64,000 nucleotides of DNA from Deltaproteobacteria bacterium (GCA_029261835.1 JAJDAO010000072.1:74841-138840); one strand, 5' to 3'. Shown: positions 8,861 through 63,595, counted from the stretch's first letter. The notes: generated by a model not told the origin, from the sequence alone. Numbers and translations are program-made.

Positions 8861-8928
8861 GGCTCTTCCTCCAATCTCTCAACCGAACGCGTACGGACCG
8901 TGCGCAGGCGGAGCCGATAACAAAAGCA

Positions 8929-12427: not shown

Positions 12428-12537
12428 GGCAAGCTAAATTGTTGTTCTGTGGCTTTTTTCGCTGCCTCCAGCTAGGCGTCTGGGGGATCGGCGCAACCGG
12501 CCCGATCGGTGCGGTGCGTGGTAATGGTTGCGTGTTA

Positions 12538-42076: not shown

Positions 42077-42261
42077 GCTCGATCCCCTTTCGAAACGCCA
42101 GCGTAGCAAGGCGCCCGCTCAGCACGCCGATGCAGCGCGGCTCGGCGCCCGCACGCTTTTCGCTTTACCCATCTTCGTAGAAGTGATAGGTAGTACATAT
42201 CACTTTTCCTTCCCGGATGCAGCGGGTACGAGGCAGTCCGGGCAACGGGCGGACGAGTCGG

Positions 42262-48473: not shown

Positions 48474-48742
48474 GCGAGGGACGGCGCGATGCAATGTCCT
48501 ACGCTGCGGCATCCACCGCGCGCGCACACGTATCCGGGCGCTCAGAAGCCCGAGAGCCGAGCACGTCCGTTTCGACACAGTTGAATGCCGGAGGGCGATC
48601 GATATGGATATGCTGAGCTGGGCTGCAACTTCTTCCGGGAGCGCTCACCCACGGAAGTATTGAGAGTTTGGCGGCGAGACGACGGCTCGAATCCGGAGCG
48701 CCGCTCGGCGCGGCCGTGTCCGGGGACGACACGCGTGCTGCC

Positions 48743-49534
48743 TCACTCCTCGAGCAGGTCTGCCAAGAGGCGATCTCGCACAGCCAGCACCAGGGCCTCT
48801 GTGCGTTCGAGCGCCGCGCGCGTGTAGCGCTCCTCTGTAGCGGGATCGAACCGCCCGACCACGCGAGAGTTGAATAGCTGCAGCTCCGCCCGCACGAGCA
48901 CGTCCAGCCGCTTCACATAGATCGCGAGGTCGCTGACCTCGAGCCCCACCTCTTCGGTCAGTCCACTCTCGCGCGCCCCGCCAACCGCGCGGGTGATCTT
49001 CAGGCTGAGCGGGTCGTAGCGTTCCCGCCCGGCGCTCTCGAGCCGTCGCACCAGTCGCAGCTCTTCCAGCGCGCTGAGTACGTCGCTGTCGATGCCGGGC
49101 ACCGCGAGCAGCTCGCAGCGCTTGACCGGCGTGCGGCGGTCCCCGGCCAACGCTTCGACCAGATCTGCGCGCAATACCCGCGTACGCTGTAGCTCGCGCG
49201 CAACGCGGTCTGCGCCTTGCTGCTGGATCATCCGGGCGATCACACGCAGCGGCAGATGGCGCTGCGAGCAAAGCTCACGCACCAGCGCGATCCGCTCGAT
49301 GCAGACGGGATCGTAGTAGGCCATGTTGGGCCCGGTGAACAGGGCGGGCGGCAGCAGACCGAGATCGTTGTAATGCTTGACCGTCGCGCGGGTCACATCG
49401 GCCGCGCGCGCCAGCCGAGCGCGGCTGAGCCAACCCGCTGGAACCTGCGAGCGCTCGACATATGTGCGCCGGGCCCTGCCCGGCGTGCCTGCCGTCTTTT
49501 TGCCTGCGATGCCGCAGACGTAGCACAGCGGCAT
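48743..49534 (-). CDS. MerR-family transcriptional regulator
   Basis: HTH region LSRARLARAADVTRATVKHYNDLGLLPP. Lies 34 nt downstream of the Tat molybdoenzyme gene on the same strand. Confidence 0.75.
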   Translation of the reverse strand: MPLCYVCGIAGKKTAGTPGRARRTYVERSQVPAGWLSRARLARAADVTRATVKHYNDLGLLPPALFTGPNMAYYDPVCIERIALVRELCSQRHLPLRVIARMIQQQGADRVARELQRTRVLRADLVEALAGDRRTPVKRCELLAVPGIDSDVLSALEELRLVRRLESAGRERYDPLSLKITRAVGGARESGLTEEVGLEVSDLAIYVKRLDVLVRAELQLFNSRVVGRFDPATEERYTRAALERTEALVLAVRDRLLADLLEE

Positions 49535-49568
49535 GTTGGAGCCAGCCCACCCCTCGGGTGGAATCCAG

Positions 49569-52448
49569 TCAGATCGAGGTGTCGCTGGCGGAGGTGTGCT
49601 TGCTGACCTCGACCCGCGTGCCGCGATCGCTGGCTCCCGGCGTTCCTACCGCGAGTCTCGGCTGCAGGTGAAAATAGTCGCCCGCGAGTTGAATCGGGTT
49701 GAAGGGGTTCGGAGTGATGGCCTTCTGCGACGTGTGACCCGCAAACTGGTACGGCTCCCAGGCGTGGTAGATGATCACCTGCCCCGGTCGCACCGAGGGT
49801 GAAACCCTGGCCTGCACTTCGAAGGAGCCGGCGTCGTTGTGGACGCGCACGATCTCGCCGTCCTCGATTCCGCGCGCACCGGCGTCTTCCGGCCCGATGG
49901 TCAGCAGCGGCCCACCGCGCTGCAGACGCAGGAGCGAGACGTCGTCACGCCACGCCGCATGAACCGACCAGCGTGTGTGGCCGCTCGTCATCTGCAGCGG
50001 ATGGTTCCCGCCGATGGGCGGCGGGTCCTTGTGAACGGGCAGCTCCTCCCCGAGCTCGAAGTAGAGATCGTGGTCGATATAGAACTGCATGCGACGCGTC
50101 AGTGTGGGCCAGGGGCGCTTCTTCTCGGTATGCCAGCTATTCGCCGTGATCGTCTGGTCGGGCTCGATATCGCTGGCATTCCCAAGATTCATGTAGCCGG
50201 AGCCCAGCCCGGTGTAGCGCTCGAAGCCCTTCTGCTTGAGCTCGTCCCACCCGATCCCGTCGAGATTGTTCGCCAGCGAGAGGGCCTCCTGCATCATCGC
50301 TTCGGAGTCGTTCTCCCCGAAGCGCTGCTGAAAAGTGAACTCTTCGTAGAAGTCGTCGATACGACGGCGCTCACCAGCACGGTCTTCGAACTCACTGACA
50401 CCGCGCGCTCGGGCCCGCTCCTGCAACGCCTTCGCGAAGCCACAGTGAAACGCCCAGTCGGATCTGGACTCGCCGAGGGGAGGGACGGCCTGGGTGGTGA
50501 CGTGCGCGAAGGGTGCGATCGGTGTCGTCCACGGGATCGTATTGACTTCGTAATAGGCGGCGATCGGCAACACGAAATCGCTGTGAAGCGCGGTAAAGTT
50601 CATGCGCCAATCGAGCGTGACGATCAGCTCCAGCTTGGGCCAGAGCTCTGCGAGGATCTTCGGATAGCCCCGGTTGCGGCGCAGATAGTTGCCACCGGCC
50701 TCGAAGAAGAGGCGTGGCCGGTTGCGCGCGGGCACCTGCCAGCCCTTCTCGAAAGCCTCCTCCAGGTATTCGTGCGACTCGCGCTGCTGGCTGGGATCCC
50801 ACTTCTTCGAACCGCCCAGATCGTCCGCGAGCCCCGCGTGCTCGTAGAGGAAGATTGCGCTCGAGGGTTGACCACCGCCGGCGTGCCTCCGGCGCATCAG
50901 TTCGTACATCACCATCTCCGGCGTGTACCCATCCCACTTCATCTCGAGCACATCCAGCGCGACGGGGAGTCCCTCGGCGACCAGACCCAACCGCGGCGGT
51001 AGCGAGCCCGATCCGACGATCAGGCCTTCATGGCCCGAGAGCCACAGGTTTGGAAAACCGTTGATCCCGCTGCCCTTCCGTCCGAACTGTCCCGCCAACG
51101 CAAAGGCGAGGAACTGCGCGCGCTCCATCTCGAGCCCGTGATAGTACTTGCCGAAATTGGACTGTGTGATGCACGTGGCAGCGCGCGCCCGCGCCATCGC
51201 TCGAGCCAGCTCGCGCACCGTCTGCGGCCGAACGCCGGTGACCTCTGCCGTCGCCTGCGGTGAGTAGGCCGCGAGTCGCTCGCGGAGCAGCTCGAAGACC
51301 GGCACCACCCGCACCTCTCCTCGCGGCGTGGCGACGCGATACTCCCCCTCCAACGCGGGGTCCAGCCCCTCGAGCGCGAGGCTCGTCTGCGAAACGGCCT
51401 GAATGCTGCCAGAAGTCCTGTCGTATACCCAGAAACGATCTTCCTCGCCGCCCTGCTCGAGGTCGCTGGAACGCAGGAAGCGGCGTGTATCGCGGCATAC
51501 GAGCAGAGGCAGGTCCGTCTGCTCCGCCACGAATTTCGCGTCGTAGATATTCTCTTCGACCATCACGTGAGCCAGGGACAATCCGAATGCGGCATCGCTG
51601 GCGATGTTCAACGGGATCCACTGGTCGGCGTGAATCGCCGAGGGGTTGTAGTCGGGCGTGATTGCGACCACCCGAGCACCGCGATAGCGGGCCTCGTTGA
51701 TGAAGTGCGCGTTCGGAATCTGTGTGTAGGTCGGGTTCCCGCCCCAGACCAGAATCAGGTCGGAGTAGAAGAGGTCGTCGGCCGAGCTGCAGAAGGAGAT
51801 CTTGCCGCACGTGACGGCGGCGCCCGGGTGGTGATCTCCGAACTCCGAGTCGAGGTCCAGCACGTGAGTATCGAGCAGCGCGTGGGTACGCTGAACACCG
51901 AGGTTGGAGCCTCCCGAGCCCTCGTCCCAGATGATCGACCCGGGGCCATCGCTCGCCAGAACGTCGATGCACCGGTCGGCGATCGTGCGCAGCGCATACT
52001 CCCACGAGACTCGCTTCCAGCTTCCGGCTCCACGCGGGCCGACGCGTTCGAGCGGGTAGCGCAGGCGACCGGCGTCATACATCCGTCCGCTGAAGGAGGC
52101 GCCCTTCTGACATCCGCGCGGATTGAAGTCCGGCACGTCGGCGTTCGTCTGTGGATAGCTGCCGGTCTGCTCCTCGCGCCAGACAACGCCTTCCTTCACA
52201 TAGACGTTCCAGTTGCAGCAGCGCTGGTACCAGCAGTTCCCGTGGTGGGTCCCCTTCGCGACGCGATCCCAGGTCCACTGGCGCCGGTAGACATCCCTGA
52301 AATCGTGATAGTGAATCTCGCGCACGATCGGCGCGACGGATCCAGATGAATCCTGTCGCGCTTCGCCGCAGCGGAGCTGGAGGAGTGAGAGGGCGAGCAG
52401 ACCGCCACCGCCCTGCAGAAAGCGCCGCCGCGTGATGGGGGCTCGCAC
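49569..52448 (-). CDS. Tat-exported molybdopterin-dependent oxidoreductase catalytic subunit, NarG/EbdA-like
   Basis: 959 aa. GTG start after GGAG. Twin-arginine signal MRAPITRRRFLQGGGGLLALSLL; HHGNCWYQRCC...GCQKG cluster motif; ITPDYNPSA. Confidence 0.9.
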   Translation of the reverse strand: MRAPITRRRFLQGGGGLLALSLLQLRCGEARQDSSGSVAPIVREIHYHDFRDVYRRQWTWDRVAKGTHHGNCWYQRCCNWNVYVKEGVVWREEQTGSYPQTNADVPDFNPRGCQKGASFSGRMYDAGRLRYPLERVGPRGAGSWKRVSWEYALRTIADRCIDVLASDGPGSIIWDEGSGGSNLGVQRTHALLDTHVLDLDSEFGDHHPGAAVTCGKISFCSSADDLFYSDLILVWGGNPTYTQIPNAHFINEARYRGARVVAITPDYNPSAIHADQWIPLNIASDAAFGLSLAHVMVEENIYDAKFVAEQTDLPLLVCRDTRRFLRSSDLEQGGEEDRFWVYDRTSGSIQAVSQTSLALEGLDPALEGEYRVATPRGEVRVVPVFELLRERLAAYSPQATAEVTGVRPQTVRELARAMARARAATCITQSNFGKYYHGLEMERAQFLAFALAGQFGRKGSGINGFPNLWLSGHEGLIVGSGSLPPRLGLVAEGLPVALDVLEMKWDGYTPEMVMYELMRRRHAGGGQPSSAIFLYEHAGLADDLGGSKKWDPSQQRESHEYLEEAFEKGWQVPARNRPRLFFEAGGNYLRRNRGYPKILAELWPKLELIVTLDWRMNFTALHSDFVLPIAAYYEVNTIPWTTPIAPFAHVTTQAVPPLGESRSDWAFHCGFAKALQERARARGVSEFEDRAGERRRIDDFYEEFTFQQRFGENDSEAMMQEALSLANNLDGIGWDELKQKGFERYTGLGSGYMNLGNASDIEPDQTITANSWHTEKKRPWPTLTRRMQFYIDHDLYFELGEELPVHKDPPPIGGNHPLQMTSGHTRWSVHAAWRDDVSLLRLQRGGPLLTIGPEDAGARGIEDGEIVRVHNDAGSFEVQARVSPSVRPGQVIIYHAWEPYQFAGHTSQKAITPNPFNPIQLAGDYFHLQPRLAVGTPGASDRGTRVEVSKHTSASDTSI

Positions 52449-52470
52449 GCCAAGACTCCGTCGATCCCGG

Positions 52471-52662
52471 TCAGGACGGCCTGGACAGAATGACGGCGCC
52501 GTTCTGGAAGTCGACCTCTCGAATCACGCCCTCGATCTCTTTCGTCTCTCCGAAGAGCGTCGCGATGCGAATCCGCTTGCCATCGCACTCGATCATCGCG
52601 ATGTCTTCGAGTACCAGCTCACGCTCGCCATTCTCGTCGAAGTACGCACTCGCCATGCACAT
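52471..52662 (-). CDS. cooT: CooT-family nickel-binding protein
   Basis: ORF 52471..52707 trimmed to ATG 52662 (GGGAGGA 7 nt upstream). The 63-aa product starts MCMASAYF... like R. rubrum CooT (MCMAK..., Cys2 is the Ni ligand), with a conserved TLFGE-type segment. Confidence 0.75.
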   Translation of the reverse strand: MCMASAYFDENGERELVLEDIAMIECDGKRIRIATLFGETKEIEGVIREVDFQNGAVILSRPS

Positions 52663-52663
52663 G

Positions 52664-52879
52664 TCACGGTCCTCCCAACTCGTCGAGGGCGCCCTGCAGA
52701 ACGTCATTCGCCCGACGCATCTGCTCCGCGGCCTCGAGAATGCGTTGTGAAACGCCGGCGTGTCCCGAAGCCTCGGCCTTCTCTGCCCATTTTCGGAACT
52801 CCTGCATATGCCCTTTGTTGTGCTCCATCCAGTGTTCGAGCACGATGGTCAACTTGCCCTCTTTGCTCTCCGTGGTCAT
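52664..52879 (-). CDS. CooJ-like small helical nickel-binding protein (no His tail)
   Basis: ORF 52664..52963 trimmed to ATG 52879 (GGGAG upstream). 71 aa. EHWMEHNKGHM matches the CooJ H-(W/F)-X2-H-X3-H Ni(II) site motif exactly. Stop lies 1 nt before the cooT ATG. Confidence 0.6.
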   Translation of the reverse strand: MTTESKEGKLTIVLEHWMEHNKGHMQEFRKWAEKAEASGHAGVSQRILEAAEQMRRANDVLQGALDELGGP

Positions 52880-52916
52880 CTTCCCAGCTCCCATATGCAG
52901 ACTTATGCGCTCAGTG

Positions 52917-53732
52917 CTAACTCGGATCGCGCGAGAGAATCCATCGATCGACGATCTCGCCAACGGCCACGATACCAGGTGAGTCCGGTGGCAGCTCAGT
53001 GAGGGGCTTCCCGATCAGATCGTGGTAGGCAACTCGCTCGTCCTGCGGAATGAATCCGACGACCTCCACCCCCACCGACTGCGCCGCCCGCTCGACCAGC
53101 TCTTCGTTTCCCTGAACGCGGTTCAGGACCAGACCGAGACGACCACACTCGATGACGTTCTCCTCTTCGACCATTCGCTTCACCAACGAAGCGGTCTGCA
53201 GACCGCGCGAGGTCGCATCACTGACGATGATCAGAGTGTCGACCCGTCGCATCACCTGGCGATTGATCTGCTCGAGCCCCGCCTCCCCGTCGATCAAGAT
53301 CGTGTCGAAGTCTTGCGAAAGCGCCTCGATGGTTCCGCGCAACAGGTCGTTGACCGGGCAGTAGCAACCCTTCGTCTCGGTTCTCCCCATCGCGAGCAGG
53401 GCGTAGTCCTCCTGCTCGCTCAGCGCCTCGAGAACCATGTAGTCGAGCATGTCGATCAGTTGAGTCTTTTGCTCTCGATTGGCTCGTCTCGACCTGGCGA
53501 TGATCTCCTCGCGAACTTCTCCCATCGTCCGCTTCACCTCGACATCGAGCGCCAGCGGCAACCCCTTGGCCGGGTCCGCGTCGATCAGCAGCAGCCGTCC
53601 CGTGCGGTCCCGGTCCAGCAGTACCTTGCTCATCATCGCGGTGAAGGCAGTCTTTCCGACGCCACCCTTGCCACAGACGGCGATCAACCTCGTCTGCTGC
53701 CCACTCGTGCCCACACTGGCCGCCTCCACCAC
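52917..53732 (-). CDS. cooC: CooC/AcsF-type nickel-insertion ATPase (MinD/ParA class)
   Basis: 271 aa. Deviant Walker A CGKGGVGKT; metal-bridging C-x-C motif TKGCYCPVN; GGAGGGG SD before GTG 53732. Confidence 0.8.
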   Translation of the reverse strand: MVEAASVGTSGQQTRLIAVCGKGGVGKTAFTAMMSKVLLDRDRTGRLLLIDADPAKGLPLALDVEVKRTMGEVREEIIARSRRANREQKTQLIDMLDYMVLEALSEQEDYALLAMGRTETKGCYCPVNDLLRGTIEALSQDFDTILIDGEAGLEQINRQVMRRVDTLIIVSDATSRGLQTASLVKRMVEEENVIECGRLGLVLNRVQGNEELVERAAQSVGVEVVGFIPQDERVAYHDLIGKPLTELPPDSPGIVAVGEIVDRWILSRDPS

Positions 53733-53734
53733 GC

Positions 53735-54586
53735 CTACCCCTCCGCCCTCTTCGCCTTCTTCGCCGACTGGGCCGCCCGTTTCGCCTGTCTGCGCAGCAG
53801 AACGACCTCGCGGATGTCATCGCAATCCTGCTGCTCGCTGCAGGATCCACAGTCGTGCGAGACGCTGCAGGCGGCGGGATCGAAGCCCTTGGCGCGCCAC
53901 GCCTCTTTCGCCAGCTCCGCTCCGATCAAGCTGGCCTCTTCGGCGATCTCTCCCAGCCGCTCCACGTCCTCGCGTCCCGAGGTGACGAAGAGCACCTGCA
54001 TCGTCCGAATCTTGGGCAGCTCGCCCTTGAAGATCGCGATCAGTGCTGCGCCGAGCGCCTCGAAGTCGAATCCCTTGCCGGCGATCTCCCGGCCAACGCG
54101 ACTCCAGAGCCGACCCGGCGCGCGACGGATCATGTACCCCTCGATCTGGTTCGCGACGAACTGCTTGAGTTCGAGCGCCGACTGGTCCCCTTTGTCGAGC
54201 GCTTCGCCGCCCACCATCACCACCTGGCCGAATGGCAGGCTGGCGCCCTCGGACTCCTGCAAGCCGGGGCCGACGAGCGTGATTCGGCCGTCCTCGATCA
54301 GCTCGGACCGCCGGGTCCAGAGCAGCAGCGGGCAGGAACCCGCGTCGGGGCTGCCCAGCTCCGCGAAGACGTCCTTTCGCAGGATCAGTCCCGAGTGGGC
54401 TCCGGGCCCGACCCGCATCGGCAACTTCTCGAGCAGCGCATCCGCCTCACCCCGTGCATGCCAAACGCGAGTGGGACGACCCGCCGCGCCCAGTTCTTCG
54501 ACGAGGCGAGCTACCTCTGCGATGTGGAGGTCGAAGCTCTGGCCGGGCGGGGCGTCGTCCACATCGCGACTCGCGGGCTCACTCAT
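53735..54586 (-). CDS. acetyl-CoA synthase (AcsB/CdhC) middle-domain-like protein with C-terminal 4-Cys motif
   Basis: 283 aa. MRVGPGAHSGLILRKDVFAELG...IEDGRITLVGPGLQESEGASLPFGQVV...QIEGYMIRRAPGRLWSRVGREIAGKGFDFEALGAALIAIFKGELPKIRTMQVLFVTSG aligns by eye with Moorella AcsB residues about 300-490, recalled from memory. Ends with CSVSHDCGSCSEQQDC. Confidence 0.6.
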   Translation of the reverse strand: MSEPASRDVDDAPPGQSFDLHIAEVARLVEELGAAGRPTRVWHARGEADALLEKLPMRVGPGAHSGLILRKDVFAELGSPDAGSCPLLLWTRRSELIEDGRITLVGPGLQESEGASLPFGQVVMVGGEALDKGDQSALELKQFVANQIEGYMIRRAPGRLWSRVGREIAGKGFDFEALGAALIAIFKGELPKIRTMQVLFVTSGREDVERLGEIAEEASLIGAELAKEAWRAKGFDPAACSVSHDCGSCSEQQDCDDIREVVLLRRQAKRAAQSAKKAKRAEG

Positions 54587-54616
54587 TCGCCCTTCCCGAT
54601 CGCCACGCCCGCCCGC

Positions 54617-55405
54617 CTAGAGCTTCGCATCCAGCCTCTCCCGAGCGAGGAGGGCCGCCCCGAGCGCGCCCGCGAGCTGGGGATCGCGCGGCAGCCTCTT
54701 CACTTCGACCTCCAGCGACTCTCCAATCGCCTTCACCAAGCCGTCATTCTTCGAGCAGCCGCCGGTGAGCACGACGTCTTCGATCACGCCCACGCGGCGC
54801 GCCATTCCCTTCAGCCGCTTGGCGACCGAGAGGTTCACTCCGGCAATGATGTTGCGAAAGTCGGTGCCCTCATTGACGAGGGTCACGACCTCGGACTCCG
54901 CGAACACGCTGCACTGGTTGGAGATCACGCAAGGCTTCTCTCCCTGGTTCTCCAAGGCCGAGATCCCGTCGAGTCCGCAGCCGAGCCCACGTGAGATGCC
55001 TTCGAAGAACCGCCCGGTGCCCGCAGCGCAGCGATCATTCATGACGAACTCGAGCACGCCGCCCTTGGGCGAGACGGAGATCACCTTGCAGTCCTGTCCG
55101 CCGATATCGATCACAGTCCGCACGCTGGGCACCATCCAGTGGGCACCCTTCGCATGGCAAGCGATCTCCGACACGTTCTCGTTGGCAAACGGGATGTCGA
55201 GTCGGCCGTATCCGGTACTCACGGTGTTCTCGATGTGGTCGACGGAGGGAACACCCGCCTCCGCCAACGCCGCTTCGATCACCCGATTTGCCATCTTCAA
55301 GGGGTGTGCCGTCGACGGTTCTATGTGCGTGCCAATCACGTCTCCGTCTTTCATGACGACGGCCTTGCCAGTAGCCGATCCGAGATCGATGCCCGCGACG
55401 ATCAT
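54617..55405 (-). CDS. acyl-CoA dehydratase activase (HgdC/BcrAD_BadFG ATPase)
   Basis: 262 aa. GIDLGSATGKAVV, DIGGQDCKVI, NDRCAAGTGRFFE, LTGGCSKN. Confidence 0.9.
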   Translation of the reverse strand: MIVAGIDLGSATGKAVVMKDGDVIGTHIEPSTAHPLKMANRVIEAALAEAGVPSVDHIENTVSTGYGRLDIPFANENVSEIACHAKGAHWMVPSVRTVIDIGGQDCKVISVSPKGGVLEFVMNDRCAAGTGRFFEGISRGLGCGLDGISALENQGEKPCVISNQCSVFAESEVVTLVNEGTDFRNIIAGVNLSVAKRLKGMARRVGVIEDVVLTGGCSKNDGLVKAIGESLEVEVKRLPRDPQLAGALGAALLARERLDAKL

Positions 55406-55444
55406 GACTTCCCGCCCTTCCCCACTGCGCTGCGTCTCGCCCGA

Positions 55445-56743
55445 CTAGCCAACACCAATACCGGCGAAGAAACGTGCGAACTTGTCCTTGATCTGATCCG
55501 GCGTCGTGTACCGACGATCGAAGATGTCCATGCGGATGTCCATGAATGGGACACCCAGCTCACGACAGGCCTCTCTCATGATACCGAAGGTGCCCTGAGT
55601 CTCCTTGTGGCCCATATGGCCGGGCCAGACGACGACATCGATCTGGTAGTCCTTGACGATCCGCACCAGATCGTCGACGAAGCCCTCGGCCGGTCCCATC
55701 GCCTGTCTGACCATCGGGGTGTCGAAGAGGCCTCGCTTGGCCAGGCCTCGCCAGATTTCCTGCTCGTCCGAGGTGTCGATCGTCGTATAGGGATGGTTCC
55801 CGAACATGTCCATCACGACGACCGCGCCGAACTCCTCTTCGAGCCACGGCATGAACTCGAAGATGAAGCCGCTCGGCATGATGTCGAACCAGAACAGCCT
55901 GATCTTCTCCTTCTCTACGGCGCCGATCCCCTTCTCGACCTTCTCCTCGGTCAGGTCGACGAGATTCTGGAACCACTCGGTTCCATCCTTGTGCCCCACC
56001 TTGAACATCTGCGATACCGCAAAGCACATCGGGCCTCCGAGGCCATAGCCGTGGGGGCACGGAACCGCGCGTCGGAGCTCGTTGTACTCCTGCCACAGGA
56101 GATACTGACGGTCGCTCTCCTCTACGACCTCTCGCAGGCGATCCATGTCCAGCTTGGCGCCCGTCTCCTTCTCGAGAAAGGCCGTCATCTTCTTCAGCTC
56201 GTTGGCGAAGTAATCAATGCTGCGATCGTCGTTGAAGTAGGGCGGATCGGGGCAGAACATTGGAATGTGCCCCCAGGTCTTGCTGTGCTTGATTACCTGG
56301 TGGAGCATCGGCATGCCGTCACAGGGGAAGATGAAGCCGATCACCGCGCTCGGAACTGGCACCAGATCTTTCTCGACGTAGTAGATGCTGGATCGAATCG
56401 CGGTGCAGAGATCGGTCCCCAGTCCCATCGCGCCCGTCTCGTCGATCTGATCGGAGAGCCCCTCGACGCTGACAGCCATGAAGGGAGCCTCGTAGAGCAT
56501 CAGCCATGGGATGTCCATGGCCTCGGTGATCTCCGGGGCCGTGCAGTAGTTGTTGTTGACGAACGGCCGGCCTTCCTCGTGGGCGGTCAGGATCGTGTCT
56601 CGAGCCTCGCTCACGAACTTGGCCAGCCTGCCCGCGACACGGATCTCGGGATTCTCACTCTGCTGAGAGAGCGCGTAGAAGCCGGCGTAGCGCTCACGAT
56701 CCTCTTTATAGGACCGGATGCCCCGATGTTCTTCAGTCGTCAT
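55445..56743 (-). CDS. 2-hydroxyacyl-CoA dehydratase / benzoyl-CoA reductase D-component family subunit
   Basis: 432 aa. Pattern typical of HgdA/B-BcrB/C proteins (NNNYCTAPEI..., LGTDLCTAIRS, IFPCDGM). Confidence 0.8.
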   Translation of the reverse strand: MTTEEHRGIRSYKEDRERYAGFYALSQQSENPEIRVAGRLAKFVSEARDTILTAHEEGRPFVNNNYCTAPEITEAMDIPWLMLYEAPFMAVSVEGLSDQIDETGAMGLGTDLCTAIRSSIYYVEKDLVPVPSAVIGFIFPCDGMPMLHQVIKHSKTWGHIPMFCPDPPYFNDDRSIDYFANELKKMTAFLEKETGAKLDMDRLREVVEESDRQYLLWQEYNELRRAVPCPHGYGLGGPMCFAVSQMFKVGHKDGTEWFQNLVDLTEEKVEKGIGAVEKEKIRLFWFDIMPSGFIFEFMPWLEEEFGAVVVMDMFGNHPYTTIDTSDEQEIWRGLAKRGLFDTPMVRQAMGPAEGFVDDLVRIVKDYQIDVVVWPGHMGHKETQGTFGIMREACRELGVPFMDIRMDIFDRRYTTPDQIKDKFARFFAGIGVG

Positions 56744-56746
56744 GGC

Positions 56747-57892
56747 TCATTTCCCCATACTTTCGATGAATGCCTGGACGCGAGTCTTCAGCTGACCTGT
56801 TGCGCTGGTGAGATACTCGCGATCGATTCGCAGAAAGGGAATCCCCTCGTCTGCAAGATCCATGTCCAGCATGTAGTTTTCCACGTCCCACTGATCACAG
56901 AACATCATCTTCTCGCCCAAGACGCCGTCGCAGTTGAAATCACGACACATCTTGACCGTGAACTGGGTGCGTTTCTCCTGCGTGTCGAGGAGCCGCGGAC
57001 AACTCGGCCGGTCCGCCAGGTAGTAGCGAGCCAGCGCCTCGAGAGGATCCTCCGCCTCTTCGTCGATGTCCTGCCACATCAGCCGAGCTCCAAAGCAGGT
57101 CCCGTCGGTAACGACGAGCCCCCCCACCGACTCGACCGCACGCACCCAGGCGGGATCGTCCAAGATACCACCCGTAATCATCAGTCTGGCGCGGTAATCC
57201 CCCTCGCCCTGCACGCCGTCGAGCTCCGTCAGAAGTCGGCTGAGCAGCGCGTTGTACTCCTCTTTCGGCATCGCCGTTCCGGCAACCATGATCACGAGGG
57301 CCTGCTCGCCGTTGATCGGCGGTCGCTCCTGCTTGCGAAGCGCATACAGGGCGCGCTGGAGCCCCCGCCCCTGATTCGCGAGCCGAATCGCCGCCCTGAC
57401 ATCGTCATCCTTGATCTCGACGGCGAAGCTCTCGGCCAGCGCATCGCGCAGCATCCTGCACTCCTGGGTGTACCACTGGATCTGGTCCGGTCCCGACTGG
57501 CGAGGCAGGCTGATGAAGTGAAGAAAGCCGGTGTCGACGTTTCGCTTCCAATTATCGTAGAGCCTGCGAATGTGGTCGCAGCTGTTGATGCCCACGACAC
57601 CATCGAGGAATTCGAACTCTCCCTCCAGCGCCAGGTTGAGACAATGTCGAGGAAAGGAGCAATTCAGATTGGTGAAGTAGGCGTCCGCCAGATCGGTGCC
57701 CGTGCTGCCGGTGGCGCGCATCCTGAAGGGCAACAAGCCCGCCGCCATGAAGAGCTCTTCCGGCACCATCGAGCAGAGGAAACCGATCACGCGGCCGCCG
57801 TCATCCCGCCAGCGCTGCAGCGCTGGATTGACCAGCGTCGAAGCGGCCTCGGCCATGGTCGCAAAGGCTTCCGAGCTGGCAGTAGGATCCAT
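56747..57892 (-). CDS. 2-hydroxyacyl-CoA dehydratase / benzoyl-CoA reductase D-component family subunit
   Basis: ORF 56747..57940 trimmed to ATG 57892 (GGAGGAG 5 nt upstream). RVIGFLCSMVPEELFMAAGLLPFR, NLNCSFPRHC, INSCDHIRR. Confidence 0.8.
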   Translation of the reverse strand: MDPTASSEAFATMAEAASTLVNPALQRWRDDGGRVIGFLCSMVPEELFMAAGLLPFRMRATGSTGTDLADAYFTNLNCSFPRHCLNLALEGEFEFLDGVVGINSCDHIRRLYDNWKRNVDTGFLHFISLPRQSGPDQIQWYTQECRMLRDALAESFAVEIKDDDVRAAIRLANQGRGLQRALYALRKQERPPINGEQALVIMVAGTAMPKEEYNALLSRLLTELDGVQGEGDYRARLMITGGILDDPAWVRAVESVGGLVVTDGTCFGARLMWQDIDEEAEDPLEALARYYLADRPSCPRLLDTQEKRTQFTVKMCRDFNCDGVLGEKMMFCDQWDVENYMLDMDLADEGIPFLRIDREYLTSATGQLKTRVQAFIESMGK

Positions 57893-58093
57893 CGACGCTC
57901 CTCCGTCTGTGGGTTGCGGTGAGCTGGTCGCCCGGCTCACGACGTCTGCTGAGCCTCCATCCTCTCACGATACGCGGACCCGGTTCGGCGAACATCGTCC
58001 ATATTGACTATCCGGGGCCTTGCGCCGCAAGCTGCGAGCGGCGGACGTAGCGCCCCGCCTTGCGAGTGCCGGCCCAGTGATACAATCCCCGGC

Positions 58094-59224
58094 GTGGGCG
58101 CTCAGCGTAACACCACGGATTTCGAAGAGATTCTCGGCCTCGTCTACCAGGGCCCGATCGAGCCCGTCCCCTGGCACTCGTTTCTCGATCGATTTCGCGA
58201 CGTAATGGAGGCCATGACGGTTGGGCTCATCCTGCGCCCACCGAGCGAGGGCGACCGCGGGCTCCTCTTGAACGAGAGCGACATCAGCCCGGCCTGGAGA
58301 ACCGCCTACCGCGATCGCTACTTCGCACTCGATCCGTTCGTCGACCTGCCGCTCGGAGAGCCGGTGACGCTGCAGGAGTTGGTTCCGGTCGAGGAGCTGC
58401 TGCGAAGCGAATTCTACACCCGCTACATGGAGCCGATGGGCGCGCTCTATGCGCTGGCGGTGGACGTCCGGGAGCCGGGCGGACTCGAGGCCCGGCTGCG
58501 CGCGGCTCGACCGAAGGGATCGCGAGATTTCGGCGAGGAGGAAAAGGCTGTCTTCAGACGGCTCGTCCCCCATCTCGAACGCGCACTACAGATCCACGGC
58601 AAGCTGTGCCAGACGGAGTCCGAACGCGATCTCTATGCCAACGCGGTCGATCAGTTCTCGGTCGGTACGATTCTGCTGGACTCATCGGGCCACGTCTTGA
58701 AGATGAACCGAATCGCCGAGAGCCTGCTGCACGAGCGGGACGGCCTGGTGCTGCACGAGGGACGACTCCGAACCGAAGACCGCGAGAGCTCGCAGCAGCT
58801 CCAGCGGTTGATCGACAGCGCGGCGGCGGCGCAGCGCACTCGACGCCCCAGTGTGGTGGCGGCTCTGCGCGTCGAGCGACCATCGGGAAAGCGGCACATT
58901 GCGCTGCTGCTGCGACCGGTACCACTCGGGCGTTGGTCGGATGAACGCACCTGTCCCGCGCTGGCGATCTTCGTCGGACGGCCTGAGGAACGGCCCGAGG
59001 TCGCGCCGGAGGTCCTCGAGAACCTGTTCAGCCTGACCCCGGCCGAAGCGGCGGTGGCGAGTCTGCTCGCCGAAGGCCTGAGCGTGGAGGAGAGCGCCGC
59101 GGCGCTGGGAATCTCGGTCCATACCGCCCGCGCCCACCTGCGCGCGATCTTCTCCAAGACAGGCGTCTCCCGCCAGACAGAGCTCGTCCTGCTGATCCTG
59201 GGGAGTGCGGCCAAGCTGGGCTGA
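58094..59224 (+). CDS. LuxR-family transcriptional regulator (N-terminal sensor domain, C-terminal HTH)
   Basis: C-terminal LTPAEAAVASLLAEGLSVEESAAALGISVHTARAHLRAIFSKTGVSRQTELV. Start uncertain: GTG 58094 is preferred over TTG 58004, whose 30 extra residues are low-complexity. Confidence 0.75.
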   Translation: MGAQRNTTDFEEILGLVYQGPIEPVPWHSFLDRFRDVMEAMTVGLILRPPSEGDRGLLLNESDISPAWRTAYRDRYFALDPFVDLPLGEPVTLQELVPVEELLRSEFYTRYMEPMGALYALAVDVREPGGLEARLRAARPKGSRDFGEEEKAVFRRLVPHLERALQIHGKLCQTESERDLYANAVDQFSVGTILLDSSGHVLKMNRIAESLLHERDGLVLHEGRLRTEDRESSQQLQRLIDSAAAAQRTRRPSVVAALRVERPSGKRHIALLLRPVPLGRWSDERTCPALAIFVGRPEERPEVAPEVLENLFSLTPAEAAVASLLAEGLSVEESAAALGISVHTARAHLRAIFSKTGVSRQTELVLLILGSAAKLG

Positions 59225-59330: not shown

Positions 59331-60122
59331 ATGAGCGCAGCAGCGAAGGATCCCGTCCTGGTCGAACGAAGTGGAGCCGTGACCACGCTGAGGCTCAACG
59401 ACCCGCCCCACAATCCGCTCGGCATGGCGCTGATCGATCGTCTCGAAGAGGTCGTCTCGCAGCTGGCCGATGATGCCAGCGTGCGCGCCATCGTAATCAC
59501 GGGCGCTGGTGAGCGAAGCTTCTCTGTCGGCGCTGATATCCGCGAGTTCGGAAAGGCGGCCAGTGAGGTCGGAATCCAGGCCTTCATCCAGCAACGCCTG
59601 CGACTCATTGCGCGCATCGAGCAGCTCGCCAAGCCAGTCGTGTGCGCCATTCGGGGCGCATGCGTCGGCGGAGGCCTCGAGCTGGCGCTCGGCTGTCACT
59701 TTCGCATCGCGGCGCGGGGAGCGCGCATCGGCCTGCCGGAGATCGAGCTGGGCATCATCCCGGCCTGGGGAGGCACACAGCGCCTCACGCGCGCGGTGGG
59801 ACGTGCGCACGCGCTCGACATCATTCTCCGAGCCAAGAAGATCACTGCCGACGAAGCGCTGCGCATTGGACTGGTGCACGAGATCTGTCAGCCCGACGAC
59901 CTGCTGGAGCACGCCCAGGACCTGGCCCGCGAACTCGCGGAGAAGGCGCCCATCGCTGTCGCGGGCATTCTCGAAGCTGTGATTCGCGGCGGAGCGCTGC
60001 CGCTCGAAGAGGGACTCGAAATCGAGTATCAGGCGATGGAACGCGTCAGCAGCACGAAGGACCTGCGTGAGGGCATCGTCGCCTTCTTCGAGAAGCGAAA
60101 GCCCGTCTTCCGCGGCGAATGA
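59331..60122 (+). CDS. enoyl-CoA hydratase/isomerase (crotonase) family protein
   Basis: 263 aa. AIVITGAGERSFSVGADIREF; GGGLELALGCHFRIA; GAGGAGAGGAAG SD upstream. Confidence 0.9.
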   Translation: MSAAAKDPVLVERSGAVTTLRLNDPPHNPLGMALIDRLEEVVSQLADDASVRAIVITGAGERSFSVGADIREFGKAASEVGIQAFIQQRLRLIARIEQLAKPVVCAIRGACVGGGLELALGCHFRIAARGARIGLPEIELGIIPAWGGTQRLTRAVGRAHALDIILRAKKITADEALRIGLVHEICQPDDLLEHAQDLARELAEKAPIAVAGILEAVIRGGALPLEEGLEIEYQAMERVSSTKDLREGIVAFFEKRKPVFRGE

Positions 60123-60147: not shown

Positions 60148-60241
60148 CCCCGCTTGGCGGACGAGCCCACCGGGCGACGGGAGGGGTTTATGAGATAGCT
60201 TCTCGTGTCTCAGGTGAGTTCTGCGAGAACTGGAGGTGCTG

Positions 60242-60883
60242 ATGGCCGTCGAGCTGTCTGATCTGATCCTCGAGCTGCGAAGGGAGGAGGCCTCGGCCGA
60301 GGTGCTTCGCCGCGTGCGGGAAGGTGACGATCCGCTGGTGATCCTCGCCGAATGCCGCCGGGGCATGGCTGCGGTCGGTGACCGCTTCCAGCAAGGCGAC
60401 TACTACCTCGCCGAGTTGATGCTCTCCGGCGAGCTGCTGCGAAGTCTGGTCGATCTCCTCGTCCCGCTGCTGAAGGGAAGAGACCGGGGTGTGGCGTCGG
60501 GCACGGTTGTTCTCGCAACACCAAAGGGTGATATCCACGACCTCGGCAAGGACGTGTTCGCGACCATGCTCGAAGCACACGGCTTCACTGTGCATGATCT
60601 CGGTGTCGATGTCGCACCTGAGCGAATCGTGCAAGAAGTCGAGCGAGTGGCGCCCGACTTCGTCGGCCTCTCTGCGCTGATCACGACTTCCTTCGAGAGC
60701 ATGAAGCAGACCGCTTCACTGCTCGAGCAGGCCGGGCTGCGGCAGCGTCTCAAGCTCATGGTCGGAGGCGGCGTGACGGGCCCATCCGTCAGGCGGCACA
60801 TCAACGCTGACTTCCAGACCCTGGACGCCATGGAGGGCGTCTCGTACTGCATCAATGTCATGAATCCAACGCCGACAAAGTAA
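60242..60883 (+). CDS. cobalamin (B12)-binding corrinoid protein, MtbC/MttC-like
   Basis: ATG 60242, 5 nt after GGAGG. N-terminal helical cap domain, then a Rossmann-like domain with the D-x-H-x2-G motif (GDIHDLGKD) and LSALITT. Confidence 0.8.
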   Translation: MAVELSDLILELRREEASAEVLRRVREGDDPLVILAECRRGMAAVGDRFQQGDYYLAELMLSGELLRSLVDLLVPLLKGRDRGVASGTVVLATPKGDIHDLGKDVFATMLEAHGFTVHDLGVDVAPERIVQEVERVAPDFVGLSALITTSFESMKQTASLLEQAGLRQRLKLMVGGGVTGPSVRRHINADFQTLDAMEGVSYCINVMNPTPTK

Positions 60884-63436: not shown

Positions 63437-63496
63437 CACGAACTCTTCCATCATGAACTCATCCATCATGAACTCATCCATCACGAACTCATCCAT
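63437..63496. repeat. four tandem copies of a 15-bp unit (minus-strand ATGGAKGAGTTCRTG)
   Basis: Read directly. In frame with the sulfatase-like gene, it would encode (M)DEF(V/M) x4 and supplies many in-frame ATG/GTG codons upstream of the signal peptide. Confidence 0.8.
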
Positions 63497-63595
63497 CACG
63501 AGCACATCCGTCGAGAGTCCATCCGACCCGCGGCGAGTCTACTGCAGGTCGACTCTCGGCGCCCAATGGCCGAACGATGAATTCGCAAAGGCGGG

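What the first reader, a model, noticed from the sequence alone, without database searches (positions are those of the whole stretch)
49569..57892. Orphan CooC / CooJ-like / CooT nickel-insertion set in an operon with dehydratase-like subunits, an activase, an ACS fragment and a Tat molybdoenzyme, but no CODH
Eight minus-strand genes are separated by only 1-39 nt. In order they are:
- two 2-hydroxyacyl-CoA-dehydratase / benzoyl-CoA-reductase D-component-like subunits
- one HgdC/BcrAD-type ATPase activase
- a 283-aa protein resembling only the middle part of acetyl-CoA synthase
- CooC (GKGGVGKT plus GCYCP)
- a 71-aa protein with the CooJ H-W-X2-H-X3-H motif
- CooT (MCMA... N-terminus)
- a Tat-signal NarG-like molybdoenzyme.

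CooC, CooT and CooJ are the dedicated nickel-delivery factors of Ni,Fe-CODH (R. rubrum cooFSCTJ). The window contains no CooS/AcsA, no complete ACS and no CFeSP, which implies a different nickel client.

The nearest candidates are the ACS-like protein and/or the dehydratase-like heterodimer. The activase could supply ATP-driven low-potential electrons, much as ASKHA-type activators do for dehydratases and for the corrinoid protein of the Wood-Ljungdahl pathway. I cannot recall a characterised system with this composition.
Basis: partly seen in the sequence, partly recalled or inferred. Interest (0 to 1): 0.88.

Follow-up and report, generated by a model that had tools for sequence, protein, structure and literature searches.

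The report
BCR-type enzyme with own nickel-chaperone set
This operon pairs an ATP-driven iron-sulfur enzyme of the benzoyl-CoA-reductase/dehydratase family with a truncated acetyl-CoA-synthase-like protein and its own CooC-type nickel chaperone; the five-gene set recurs in about 80 uncultured species and no paper I could search describes it, so it may be an unrecognised nickel-dependent enzyme system.

Summary
Eight minus-strand genes, 1-39 nt apart, encode:
- a BzdN-like subunit keeping all six double-cubane cysteines
- a substrate-type HGD-D subunit in which the third cluster cysteine is usually histidine
- an HgdC-type activase
- a 283-aa protein equal to the ACS middle domain plus a remodelled four-Cys stub of the A-cluster cubane motif
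- a CooC-like ATPase (GKGGVGKT, invariant CxC)
- a 71-aa DUF8180 protein (HWxxHxxxH, weakly CooJ-like)
- CooT
- a Tat-signal EbdA-like molybdoenzyme.

The 64 kb window holds no CODH, ACS or CFeSP.

The core (two HGD-D subunits, activase, CdhC-like protein, CooC-like ATPase) is conserved. Of 42 species-representative loci with enough flank, 42 carry HGD-D genes and 39 the full set, across more than ten phyla, all MAGs. DUF8180+CooT pairs join the module in nine loci at three positions. Elsewhere the same pair sits beside a Nik-like importer. The molybdoenzyme is specific to the window's clade.

Best reading: an uncharacterised ATP-driven acyl-CoA enzyme with a dedicated, probably nickel-related, accessory pair. 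Nickel content, nickel client and substrate are all inferred. No description was found in the literature I could search.

The parts
56747..57940 (-). HGD-D subunit 'a', BzdN-like, predicted [8Fe-9S] double-cubane carrier. 397 aa from GTG 57940; 381 aa if it starts at ATG 57892.
   Evidence: PF06050 E=1e-91. Best solved relative is BzdN 8s02_B, 160 bits. Six Cys (C56, C94, C121, C282, C314, C348) align with the Cys of BzdN and DCCP and are conserved at 94% or more across 68 family members. The six-Cys ligand set is described in PMC11971306 and PMC7317905.
55445..56743 (-). HGD-D subunit 'b', the substrate-binding type. Its cluster site has two invariant Cys, and a His (P-G-H-M-G-H-K) replaces the third Cys.
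   Evidence: PF06050 E=7e-51. The AF2 model has pLDDT 87. Foldseek best hits are HadB 3o3m_A, MbdO and BzdO. C113 and C141 are invariant. BzdO Cys380 aligns with H379, which is His in 63/70 and Cys in 5/70 members; H376 is conserved at 93%.
54617..55405 (-). ASKHA-type activase (HgdC / DCCP-R-like). A single gene, so presumably a homodimer bridging a [4Fe-4S] cluster.
   Evidence: BcrAD_BadFG E=3e-57; TIGR00241 252 bits against a cutoff of 125. C126 and C165 are invariant in 66/66. That they correspond to the HgdC cluster cysteines Cys127 and Cys166 is from my own knowledge.
53735..54586 (-). CdhC-like 'mini-ACS': the ACS middle (A2) domain plus a C-terminal C-x5-C-x2-C-x5-C motif and a basic tail.
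   Evidence: PF03598 E=7e-18 over residues 56-203; it matches only positions 3-168 of CdhC. The AF2 model has pLDDT 86, and Foldseek hits only ACS chains. The profile alignment to Methanosarcina CdhC runs through the Cys motif into C-x2-C-x8-C of the A-cluster cubane. C240, C246, C249 and C255 are invariant. There are 167 clusters at 50% identity with E<1e-30; the best 150 are 117-310 aa and none is a fusion.
52917..53732 (-). CooC-like P-loop ATPase with a deviant Walker A motif and an invariant CxC.
   Evidence: Best solved relative is CooC1 3kje, E=1e-10, with CYC in register with Cys112/114 (the role of those Cys is given in PMC6006190). GKGGxGKT, C123 and C125 are invariant in 67/67. It lies directly downstream of the CdhC-like gene in 57/61 loci, median gap 79 nt.
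52664..52879 (-). 71-aa helical DUF8180 protein with H-W-x2-H-N-x2-H, a candidate nickel-binding, weakly CooJ-like chaperone.
   Evidence: Precomputed Pfam PF26551 DUF8180; no hit in the local Pfam copy. H16, W17, H20, N21 and H24 are invariant in 13 sequences. RrCooJ 6hk5_B is hit no. 4 at E=0.15, with the matched ranges putting the motif in register. A homologue lies in a Fur-CooT-DUF8180-NikABC-like operon.
52471..52662 (-). CooT, 63 aa starting MCMA, a nickel-binding chaperone.
   Evidence: PF10133 E=1e-16, 61 bits against a cutoff of 27. Cys2 is conserved in all copies next to the module. The role of Cys2 is given in PMC6006190.
49569..52448 (-). Tat-signal molybdopterin oxidoreductase, an EbdA-like type II DMSO-reductase alpha subunit. 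No beta or gamma gene is adjacent. It is a clade-specific neighbour.
   Evidence: TIGR03479 889 bits (cutoff 985); EbdA model 653 bits; NarG 268 bits. The N-terminus reads TRRRFLQGGGGLLALSLL. It is linked to the HGD pair in only three arrangements: the window, L024/L089 and L087.
48743..49534 (-). MerR-family regulator 34 nt downstream, possibly the last gene of the transcription unit.
   Evidence: MerR_1 E=5e-13. No terminator-like site was found on the minus strand anywhere in 48500-58400; the single site found is on the plus strand.
58004..59224 (+). Divergently transcribed LuxR/GerE-type regulator, followed by an enoyl-CoA hydratase at 59331-60122.
   Evidence: GerE E=3e-8; ECH_1 E=3e-61. 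The same pair appears in the Logan copy L004.

Best explanation
The window carries one copy of a widespread, uncharacterised five-gene module.

Catalytic core. The core is an ATP-driven, low-potential Fe-S enzyme of the benzoyl-CoA-reductase / 2-hydroxyacyl-CoA-dehydratase / DCCP family.
- A homodimeric ASKHA activase uses ATP to push an electron into a BzdN-like subunit holding an [8Fe-9S] double cubane.
- That subunit passes the electron to the active-site cluster of a HadB/BzdO-like subunit.
- The active-site cluster is held by Cys113, Cys141 and, unusually, His379.
- The substrate is probably an acyl-CoA, judged from the fold and from neighbouring beta-oxidation-type genes.

Accessory pair. 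Two further proteins always accompany the core.
- The first is a 'mini-ACS': the acetyl-CoA-binding middle domain of ACS plus a four-Cys remnant of the A-cluster cubane site, probably a [4Fe-4S] site.
- The second is a dedicated CooC-type ATPase with the CxC metal site.
- By analogy with CooC-CODH and AcsF-ACS, I infer that the CooC-like ATPase loads a metal, most likely nickel, onto the mini-ACS protein. Less likely, it loads the His-containing site of the catalytic subunit.
- The loaded protein would then serve the enzyme as a shared accessory or redox subunit.

Lineage-specific additions. In the window's lineage the module has also recruited a CooT + DUF8180 nickel-handling pair and sits with a periplasmic EbdA-like molybdenum hydroxylase that probably acts in the same catabolic pathway.

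Shown: gene content, conservation, ligand patterns and folds. Inferred: nickel, its client, the electron path and the substrate.
For: Families and motifs.

Conservation:
- 80 species-representative loci from more than 10 phyla.
- 42/42 with HGD-D genes, 39/42 with the full set, 57/61 with CooC-like.
- One CdhC-like/CooC pair and one activase serve up to three HGD pairs (L069, L071), which fits a shared accessory role.

Catalytic core:
- The BzdN-like six-Cys set is conserved, matching PMC11971306 and PMC7317905.
- HGDb models as the substrate subunit.

Mini-ACS:
- It has the ACS A2 fold only.
- Its Cys motif aligns with the start of the A-cluster cubane motif.
- Acetyl-CoA binds mainly to A2 in ACS.

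Nickel link:
- The CxC is invariant and in register with the CooC1 Ni/Zn site.
- DUF8180+CooT pairs flank the module in nine loci, in three different positions.
- The same pair sits in a Fur-CooT-DUF8180-SBP_bac_5-permease operon, which looks Nik-like.
- One DUF8180 homologue has a His-rich tail.

Acyl-CoA context: acyl-CoA dehydrogenase, thiolase/ChsH2, CoA-transferase III, ADP-forming acyl-CoA synthetase, ECH and OYE occur nearby.

No CODH or ACS was seen in the window or in the annotated flanks I examined.
Against: - No metal content is known for any of these proteins.
- About 70 of 80 loci have no CooT or DUF8180, and CooC-like similarity to CooC1 is low (45 bits; MinD scores 39 bits).
- Four Cys in C-x2-C-x5-C spacing could simply hold a [4Fe-4S] cluster with no nickel. 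WhiB-type proteins use this spacing (own knowledge).
- The mini-ACS lacks the Cys-Gly-Cys nickel site of ACS.
- A sub-branch with Cys instead of His379 still keeps the CdhC-like and CooC genes, so the His site is not tied to the pair.
- BzdNO was produced in E. coli, and DCCP and DCCP-R were overproduced there too, with no dedicated maturase mentioned.
- One Dehalococcoidia genome has the CdhC-like/CooC pair with no HGD-D gene within 10 kb.
- A close HGD pair (L087) lacks the accessory genes locally.
- The rest of this genome could not be searched for cooS or acsB.
Confidence: 0.55

Rival explanations
1. The accessory pair has nothing to do with nickel. The CdhC-like protein is a [4Fe-4S] electron carrier, a dedicated ferredoxin-like donor to the activase, or a CoA-ester-binding subunit. 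The CooC-like protein is a MinD/Mrp-type ATPase that builds or inserts Fe-S clusters, for example the double cubane. CooT and DUF8180 in some loci are incidental metal-homeostasis neighbours.
For: - The module contains no ferredoxin gene.
- The four invariant Cys, with C-x2-C-x5-C spacing, suit a cubane.
- Most loci lack CooT and DUF8180.
- The CooC-like protein scores almost as well against MinD as against CooC1.
- R. rubrum CooC itself does not bind nickel tightly (PMC6006190).
Against: - The CxC, not the CxxC of Mrp/NBP35 proteins, is invariant and in register with the CooC1 metal site.
- DUF8180+CooT pairs were recruited next to the module in three different arrangements, in nine loci from several lineages.
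- That pair is otherwise linked to a Nik-type importer.
- Double-cubane enzymes were produced in E. coli with no dedicated factor mentioned.
Confidence: 0.27
2. The mini-ACS is itself a catalytic Ni-[4Fe-4S] subunit. It performs ACS-like organometallic chemistry on an acyl-CoA, forming or cleaving a thioester C-S or C-C bond. The radical or low-potential HGD-D enzyme prepares or reduces its substrate.
For: - It keeps the A2 domain that carries most acetyl-CoA contacts in ACS.
- It shares many A2 residues with ACS, including L-R70, E76-x-G78, G-P107, L-P118, E-G150, W161-x-R163 and K-G-F.
- Its Cys motif sits where the A-cluster cubane begins.
- It always has its own CooC.
Against: - The whole A3 domain, with the Cys-Gly-Cys Ni-d/Ni-p ligands, is missing.
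- The CoA-stacking Trp (Mt W418) is Met152 here, although Methanosarcina CdhC also has Met at that position.
- One copy serves several HGD pairs.
- The corrinoid protein nearby in the window is not conserved in other loci.
Confidence: 0.12
3. The CooC, CooT and CooJ-like genes are ordinary CODH/ACS maturation factors that merely happen to lie in this operon and serve a cooS or acs locus elsewhere in the genome.
For: - 85 of the 111 CooT-containing proteomes also contain a CODH (PMC6006190).
- The rest of this genome (a 277 kb contig and beyond) was not available.
Against: - The CooC-like gene follows the CdhC-like gene in 57/61 loci across more than 10 phyla and always sits with HGD-D genes.
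- No CODH or ACS appears in any examined flank.
- The CooC-like protein is only distantly related to CooC1.
Confidence: 0.05

Closest known systems
Class I benzoyl-CoA reductase, Bzd type (BzdNOPQ; structure of BzdNO, PDB 8S02, PMC11971306)
   Same: - Two paralogous HGD-D subunits.
- The 'a' subunit is the best PDB match to BzdN (160 bits) and keeps the six Cys that bind the [8Fe-9S] double cubane.
- The 'b' subunit models onto BzdO and MbdO.
- Electrons are delivered by an ATP-dependent ASKHA module.
- The substrate is likely a CoA ester.
   Different: - A single activase gene, where BCR has the BzdP/BzdQ heterodimer.
- Scores fall far below every BCR equivalog cutoff (160 against 454 bits).
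- The third active-site Cys (BzdO C380) is His in 90% of the family.
- No ferredoxin gene is present.
- A CdhC-like protein and a CooC-like ATPase are present; the BzdNO paper describes neither.
2-Hydroxyacyl-CoA dehydratases (HadBC+HadI, HgdAB+HgdC) and DCCP/DCCP-R
   Same: - A homodimer-type activase encoded by one gene.
- HGDb's best structural match is HadB (TM about 0.8).
- The double-cubane Cys pattern is shared with DCCP.
   Different: - The HadC-type subunit lacks the fourth Cys of the double-cubane set, whereas this one has all six.
- DCCP is a homodimer of one subunit.
- In neither system do the papers read here describe nickel chaperones or ACS-like partners.
Acetyl-CoA synthase (AcsB/CdhC) with its CooC-type maturase AcsF
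   Same: - The 283-aa protein has the A2 domain fold and sequence.
- Its Cys motif begins at the position of the A-cluster cubane motif.
- It is encoded next to a CooC-family ATPase, as acsB is with acsF (own knowledge).
   Different: - It has no A1 domain, and no A3 domain with the Cys-Gly-Cys nickel site.
- No CODH, CFeSP or methyltransferase accompanies it.
- The Cys spacing is remodelled from C-x2-C-x8-C-x9-C to C-x5-C-x2-C-x5-C.
- It is always found with HGD-D genes.
R. rubrum cooFSCTJ nickel-insertion set (CooC, CooT, CooJ)
   Same: - A CooC-type ATPase with a deviant Walker A motif and CxC.
- A bona fide CooT (PF10133, Cys2).
- A small helical protein with H-W-x2-H-x3-H in register with CooJ His18/22/26.
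   Different: - There is no cooS.
- The CooJ-like protein is DUF8180, lacks the His-rich tail, and matches CooJ only at E=0.15.
- CooT and DUF8180 accompany the module in only about nine of 80 loci.
Ethylbenzene dehydrogenase / steroid C25 dehydrogenase type Mo enzymes (type II DMSO reductase family)
   Same: - The alpha subunit is homologous over its full length (EbdA model 653 bits; TIGR03479 889 bits).
- It has a Tat signal.
   Different: - No beta, gamma or chaperone gene is adjacent.
- The score is below the family cutoff.
- It is linked to the module only in the window's clade.

Membership tests
CooC (CODH nickel-insertion ATPase) | Deviant Walker A motif GKGGVGKT | tested here: met
   GKGGVGKT lies at residues 21-28. 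G21, K22, G23, G24, G26, K27 and T28 are invariant in 67/67 sequences.
CooC (CODH nickel-insertion ATPase) | CxC metal-binding motif at the dimer interface (ChCooC1 Cys112/114) | tested here: met
   C123-Y-C125 aligns with the CYC of 3kje and is invariant in 67/67 sequences.
CooC (CODH nickel-insertion ATPase) | Encoded with, and required for, a Ni,Fe-CODH or ACS | tested here: not met
   No cooS or acsB in the 64 kb window or in the examined flanks. The partners are always the CdhC-like and HGD-D genes. The rest of the genome was not searchable.
CooC (CODH nickel-insertion ATPase) | Binds nickel and hydrolyses ATP | not testable with these tools
   Needs biochemistry.
CooT | PF10133 above the gathering score, about 60-66 aa, Cys2 nickel ligand | tested here: met
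   61.4 bits against a cutoff of 27. The protein starts MCMA, and Cys2 is conserved in all copies near the module.
CooJ | H(W/F)x2Hx3H nickel site on an N-terminal helical region (motif recalled from Alfano et al. 2019; that paper could not be fetched) | tested here: met
   H16-W17-x2-H20-x3-H24 is invariant in 13 sequences. The matched ranges place them on CooJ residues 18, 22 and 26.
CooJ | Significant sequence homology to RrCooJ | tested here: inconclusive
   6hk5_B is hit no. 4 of the PDB profile search, but at E=0.15 and 15 bits. The source database assigns DUF8180, not CooJ.
CooJ | C-terminal histidine-rich tail | tested here: not met
   The window protein ends ...DELGGP with no His tail. 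The homologue P0244 has HLEHHHHSH.
Acetyl-CoA synthase (AcsB/CdhC) | Middle (A2) domain | tested here: met
   PF03598 E=7e-18. Foldseek gives probability 1.0 to ACS chains only.
Acetyl-CoA synthase (AcsB/CdhC) | A3 domain with the full A-cluster ligands, including Cys-Gly-Cys | tested here: not met
   Only positions 3-168 of the 460-464-position CdhC models are matched. The protein ends 28 residues after the four-Cys motif.
Class I benzoyl-CoA reductase (Bzd/Bcr) | BzdN-type subunit with six Cys for the [8Fe-9S] cluster | tested here: met
   C56, C94, C121, C282, C314 and C348 align to the Cys of BzdN and DCCP and are conserved at 94% or more.
Class I benzoyl-CoA reductase (Bzd/Bcr) | BzdO-type active-site [4Fe-4S] cluster with three Cys (C95, C128, C380) | tested here: not met
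   C113 corresponds to BzdO C95. The second ligand, C141, is placed as in HadB and DCCP. BzdO C380 aligns with His379.
Class I benzoyl-CoA reductase (Bzd/Bcr) | Two different ATPase subunits (BzdP/Q or BcrA/D), and scores above the equivalog cutoffs | tested here: not met
   There is one activase gene. The BzdN model scores 160 against a cutoff of 454, BzdO 40 against 449, and BzdQ 172 against 380.
2-Hydroxyacyl-CoA dehydratase / DCCP two-component systems | HGD-D component(s) plus a single HgdC-type activase (TIGR00241) | tested here: met
   TIGR00241 scores 252 bits against a cutoff of 125. PF06050 is found twice.
2-Hydroxyacyl-CoA dehydratase / DCCP two-component systems | Equivalog-level similarity to a characterised member (HadB/C or the double_cubane model) | tested here: not met
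   The double_cubane model scores 204 against a cutoff of 350. HadC scores 134 against 700, and HadB 52 against 750.
Type II DMSO reductase family (EbdA/NarG-like) | Alpha subunit above the TIGR03479 cutoff, with adjacent beta and gamma subunits | tested here: not met
   888.7 bits against a cutoff of 984.75. No Fe-S beta or haem gamma gene lies next to it. The downstream gene is a MerR regulator.

The most novel reading that the evidence does not exclude
The module encodes a previously unrecognised nickel-dependent enzyme system outside CO and Wood-Ljungdahl metabolism. A truncated ACS (A2 domain plus cubane stub), or the Cys2-His site of the catalytic subunit, would receive nickel from a dedicated CooC lineage. 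In some taxa CooT and DUF8180 would feed that CooC. The nickel-loaded protein would work with an ATP-driven double-cubane BCR/HAD-type enzyme on acyl-CoA substrates in widespread uncultured anaerobes such as Dehalococcoidia, Myxococcota, Binatia and Desulfobacterota.
Probability: 0.4. Interest if true: 0.9.

Novelty: new variant of a known kind. Interest (0 to 1): 0.72.

Why it matters
1. Only about nine or ten kinds of nickel enzyme are known. A CooC lineage and an ACS-derived protein dedicated to a BCR/HAD-type radical enzyme would point to a new nickel client, or at least to a new job for the ACS fold and for CooC-type ATPases.

2. The module is common in abundant but uncultured subsurface and sediment lineages. 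Its substrate is probably an isoprenoid-, steroid- or alicyclic-derived acyl-CoA, so it may be a missing step in anaerobic degradation of recalcitrant lipids.

3. There is a practical annotation issue. Public pipelines name the 260-aa protein 'CO dehydrogenase/acetyl-CoA synthase beta subunit' or 'carbon monoxide dehydrogenase'. That can create false evidence for the Wood-Ljungdahl pathway in MAG-based metabolic reconstructions.

4. The His-for-Cys swap at the active-site cluster is a testable variation on the recently solved BCR mechanism.

Tried and rejected
- Literature. Nine full-text searches combined CooC/CooT/CooJ with dehydratase, BCR, double-cubane, ACS and DUF8180 terms. None found a paper describing the module. 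Hits such as the isoprene reductase paper, the Geobacter bemidjiensis genome paper and the Krumholzibacteriota paper were read and found irrelevant. Alfano et al. 2019 and 2020 could not be fetched.
- His379 as the nickel site. I considered that His379 marks a nickel site matured by the CdhC-like/CooC pair. This is weakened because a Cys379 sub-branch keeps the pair.
- C393 as a cluster ligand. Rejected: in the model it sits about four helical turns from the loop.
- Fusion proteins. I looked for 'Rosetta-stone' fusions of the CdhC-like family. There are none among the best 150 representatives.
- Corrinoid protein. I considered that the nearby corrinoid protein hints at ACS-like methyl chemistry. 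It is not conserved in any other locus.
- Small ORFs as Mo-enzyme partner subunits. I looked at small ORFs beside the second Mo gene of the window (137, 156 and 85 aa) and at the 125-aa ORF after the L089 Mo gene. There is no homology between them, and the window ORFs look non-coding.
- Riboswitches and signals. Rfam found nothing. The consensus scan found no promoter, and no terminator on the operon strand.

Full report
THE OBSERVATION

The eight minus-strand ORFs are real and tightly packed, with gaps of 3, 39, 30, 2, 37, 1 and 22 nt.
- Two HGD-D subunits (PF06050, E=1e-91 and 7e-51).
- A BcrAD_BadFG / TIGR00241 activase.
- A 283-aa protein that matches CdhC/ACS models only over their first about 165 positions.
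- A P-loop ATPase with GKGGVGKT and GCYCP.
- CooT (PF10133, E=1e-16, from the MCMA start).
- A Tat-signal molybdopterin enzyme.

Two labels need correcting:
- The 71-aa protein has no hit in the local Pfam copy. The source database assigns it to PF26551 (DUF8180).
- The molybdoenzyme is closer to EbdA / type II DMSO-reductase alpha subunits (889 and 653 bits) than to NarG (268 bits).

A MerR-family gene follows 34 nt downstream. A LuxR-type regulator and an enoyl-CoA hydratase are transcribed divergently upstream. None of the larger ORFs I scanned in the 64 kb window is a CODH, ACS or CFeSP; those left unscanned are 184 aa or shorter.

CONSERVATION

The 283-aa protein belongs to a family of stand-alone proteins of about 260 aa. 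A word-indexed search found more than 217 relatives. A full HMM scan found 167 clusters at 50% identity with E<1e-30, and none of the best 150 is fused to another domain.

A scan of one genome per species returned 80 loci. All are MAGs. They come from Dehalococcoidia, Chloroflexota, Myxococcales, Binatia, Desulfobacterota, Geobacter, Syntrophorhabdaceae, Ignavibacteria, Bacteroidota, Elusimicrobia, Spirochaetales, Actinomycetes, Verrucomicrobiota and others.

I mapped the window's proteins onto these loci:
- 42 loci have at least 4.5 kb on both sides of the CdhC-like gene. All 42 carry HGD-D genes, and 39 carry the full set of HGD-D pair, activase and CooC-like gene.
- 61 loci have at least 3 kb downstream. 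In 57 of them the CooC-like gene follows the CdhC-like gene, with a median gap of 79 nt.
- Up to three HGD-D pairs share one activase and one CdhC-like/CooC pair.

The conserved unit is therefore five genes. The CooC-like gene is a dedicated partner, not a stray CODH maturase. There are two exceptions. One complete Dehalococcoidia genome has the CdhC-like/CooC pair with no HGD-D gene within 10 kb. One close relative has an HGD pair with no accessory genes nearby.

THE CATALYTIC CORE

Subunit 'a' is most similar to BzdN of class I benzoyl-CoA reductase (8s02_B, 160 bits). Six of its cysteines (C56, C94, C121, C282, C314, C348) align with Cys in both BzdN and DCCP. All six are at least 94% conserved in 68 family members. 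In BzdN and DCCP a set of six Cys ligates the [8Fe-9S] double cubane (PMC11971306, PMC7317905).

Subunit 'b' models with pLDDT 87. It superposes best on the substrate-binding subunits HadB, MbdO and BzdO.
- C113 (equivalent to BzdO C95) and C141 are invariant.
- The third ligand position, BzdO C380, is His379 in 63 of 70 sequences and Cys in 5.
- It lies in a conserved P-G-H-M-G-H-K loop between a strand and a helix.

The activase has the two invariant Cys expected for the bridging cluster.

No subunit reaches an equivalog cutoff for BCR, HAD or DCCP. This is a distinct branch of the family, with a BCR-like electron-input subunit and a HAD-like single activase.

THE MINI-ACS

Sequence and predicted structure (pLDDT 86) match only the middle (A2) domain of ACS and CdhC. 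A profile alignment with Methanosarcina CdhC continues through the C-terminal motif. The family's invariant C240, C246/C249 and C255 fall on the C-x2-C-x8-C that begins the A-cluster cubane site. The protein then ends in a basic helix. The rest of A3, including the Cys-Gly-Cys nickel ligands, is absent.

In ACS, acetyl-CoA binds mainly to A2 (bioRxiv 10.1101/2024.08.05.606187). Many A2 signature residues are kept here. The adenine-stacking Trp is Met152, as it is in the archaeal enzyme. The most economical reading is a CoA(-ester)-binding domain carrying a four-Cys metal site, probably a cubane. C-x2-C-x5-C spacing is also used by WhiB-type [4Fe-4S] proteins (own knowledge).

THE NICKEL LINK

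- The CooC-like ATPase is only distantly related to CooC1 (45 bits, against 39 for MinD). However, its CxC is in register with the Ni/Zn-binding Cys112/114 of CooC1 and is invariant in 67 of 67 sequences.
- DUF8180 plus a 62-63-aa CooT (starting MC...) flank the module in nine loci: the window, L005, L006, L064, L063, L068, L019, L040 and L046.
- They occupy three different positions: after CooC, upstream of the activase, and divergent. This argues for repeated recruitment.
- A DUF8180 homologue at 59% identity lies in a Fur - CooT - DUF8180 - SBP_bac_5 - permease - permease operon, which is a Nik-type importer layout. That homologue also has a His-rich tail.
- The DUF8180 motif H-W-x2-H-N-x2-H is invariant. 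A profile search of the PDB puts RrCooJ fourth, with matched ranges that place the motif in register, but only at E=0.15.

Nickel is therefore well motivated but not demonstrated. About 70 of the 80 loci have only the CooC-like gene.

CONTEXT AND SUBSTRATE

Outside the five genes the neighbourhoods vary. They are rich in acyl-CoA metabolism: acyl-CoA dehydrogenase, SCP-x-type thiolase with ChsH2-like OB-fold proteins, CoA-transferase III, ADP-forming acyl-CoA synthetase, SDR, MaoC-type hydratase and OYE. In a distant branch, nine loci carry linalool dehydratase/isomerase-family genes.

In the window's own clade the EbdA-like Mo enzyme is linked to the HGD pair in three arrangements:
- after CooT in the window;
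- after CooC in a Gammaproteobacteria MAG, at 64% identity;
- overlapping the start of HGDa in L087.

These sit among sulfatases, sulfotransferases, 3-beta-HSD-type enzymes, CrtI-like flavoproteins and an SBF transporter. This suggests a shared pathway for steroid- or isoprenoid-like compounds. The Mo enzyme would be a periplasmic hydroxylase and the HGD enzyme a cytoplasmic acyl-CoA dehydratase or reductase. This part is inference only.

VERDICT

The finding is real. The adjacency is far beyond chance, and no paper in the searchable literature describes it.

It works like a BCR/HAD/DCCP-type ATP-driven Fe-S enzyme. It is not a member of any characterised subfamily, and the 283-aa protein is not an ACS.

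The most likely role of the CdhC-like/CooC pair is metallocentre delivery or a shared metallo-subunit, with nickel as the favoured metal (about 0.55). A nickel-free Fe-S or electron-donor role is the main rival (about 0.27).

I rate it a new variant of a known kind, with a substantial chance (about 0.4) that it hides a new nickel enzyme.

Noticed in passing
window 39272-42109 (-): A second EbdA-like molybdopterin oxidoreductase (945 aa, 44% identical to the operon's enzyme). It has no Tat signal (N-terminus MAEHVARPSIAGRW...), so it is presumably cytoplasmic. It also lacks adjacent beta and gamma subunit genes.
   Followed up: partly
window 60236-60883 (+): A 215-aa corrinoid protein (B12-binding_2 plus B12-binding, MtaC/MtbC-like) sits between an enoyl-CoA hydratase and an OYE flavoenzyme, 2.3 kb upstream of the operon. 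It is not conserved next to the module in any other locus.
   Followed up: yes
L085 9194-13745 (Chloroflexota MAG JBMOMT010000024): An operon of Fur-family regulator, CooT, DUF8180 (with a C-terminal HLEHHHHSH tail), SBP_bac_5 and two permeases. CooT+DUF8180 looks like a portable cytoplasmic nickel-handling pair attached to a Nik-type importer, independent of CODH.
   Followed up: partly
L081 13981-15759, and 8 other loci of the distant branch (including L048 and L050; lineages such as Geobacter, Ignavibacteria, Elusimicrobia, Syntrophorhabdaceae): Signal-peptide proteins of the linalool dehydratase/isomerase family (PF18566, E=7e-72) lie next to the five-gene module in 9 loci. A separate cluster of secreted 436-aa proteins with no Pfam hit also occurs in 9 loci. 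Together these hint at terpenoid substrates in that branch.
   Followed up: partly
L087 5938-11299 (JGI Ga0452210_000660): In a close relative (HGDb 86% identical) the EbdA-like Mo enzyme gene overlaps the start of HGDa (TetR - Mo enzyme - HGDa - HGDb). No activase, CdhC-like or CooC gene lies nearby, so the accessory genes must act in trans there.
   Followed up: partly
L069, L070, L073, L076 (Chloroflexota / Dehalococcoidales): A sub-branch of the catalytic subunit has G-H-P-G-C-K, with Cys at the position that is His379 in 90% of the family. It still keeps the CdhC-like and CooC genes.
   Followed up: yes
window 5405-12749 (-) and 43809-45557 (+): Five large FAD-dependent, amine-oxidase/CrtI-like oxidoreductases, four of them in a row. 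The same kind of genes flank the related locus L087. Their function is unknown.
   Followed up: no
window 62027-63505 (-), N-terminus: The sulfatase ORF begins with an odd repeated peptide, MDEFVMDEFMMDEFMMEEFVM, before a signal-like segment. This is probably a short tandem DNA repeat upstream of the true start.
   Followed up: no
one search hit list (for example P0020, UCG84224.1): Public annotations name the 260-aa mini-ACS 'CO dehydrogenase/acetyl-CoA synthase beta subunit' or 'carbon monoxide dehydrogenase'. This could be misread as evidence for the Wood-Ljungdahl pathway in MAG reconstructions.
   Followed up: partly
window 45564-48578 (-): A 1004-aa 7TM-PAS-GGDEF-EAL signalling protein lies just downstream of the MerR gene that ends the operon.
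   Followed up: no
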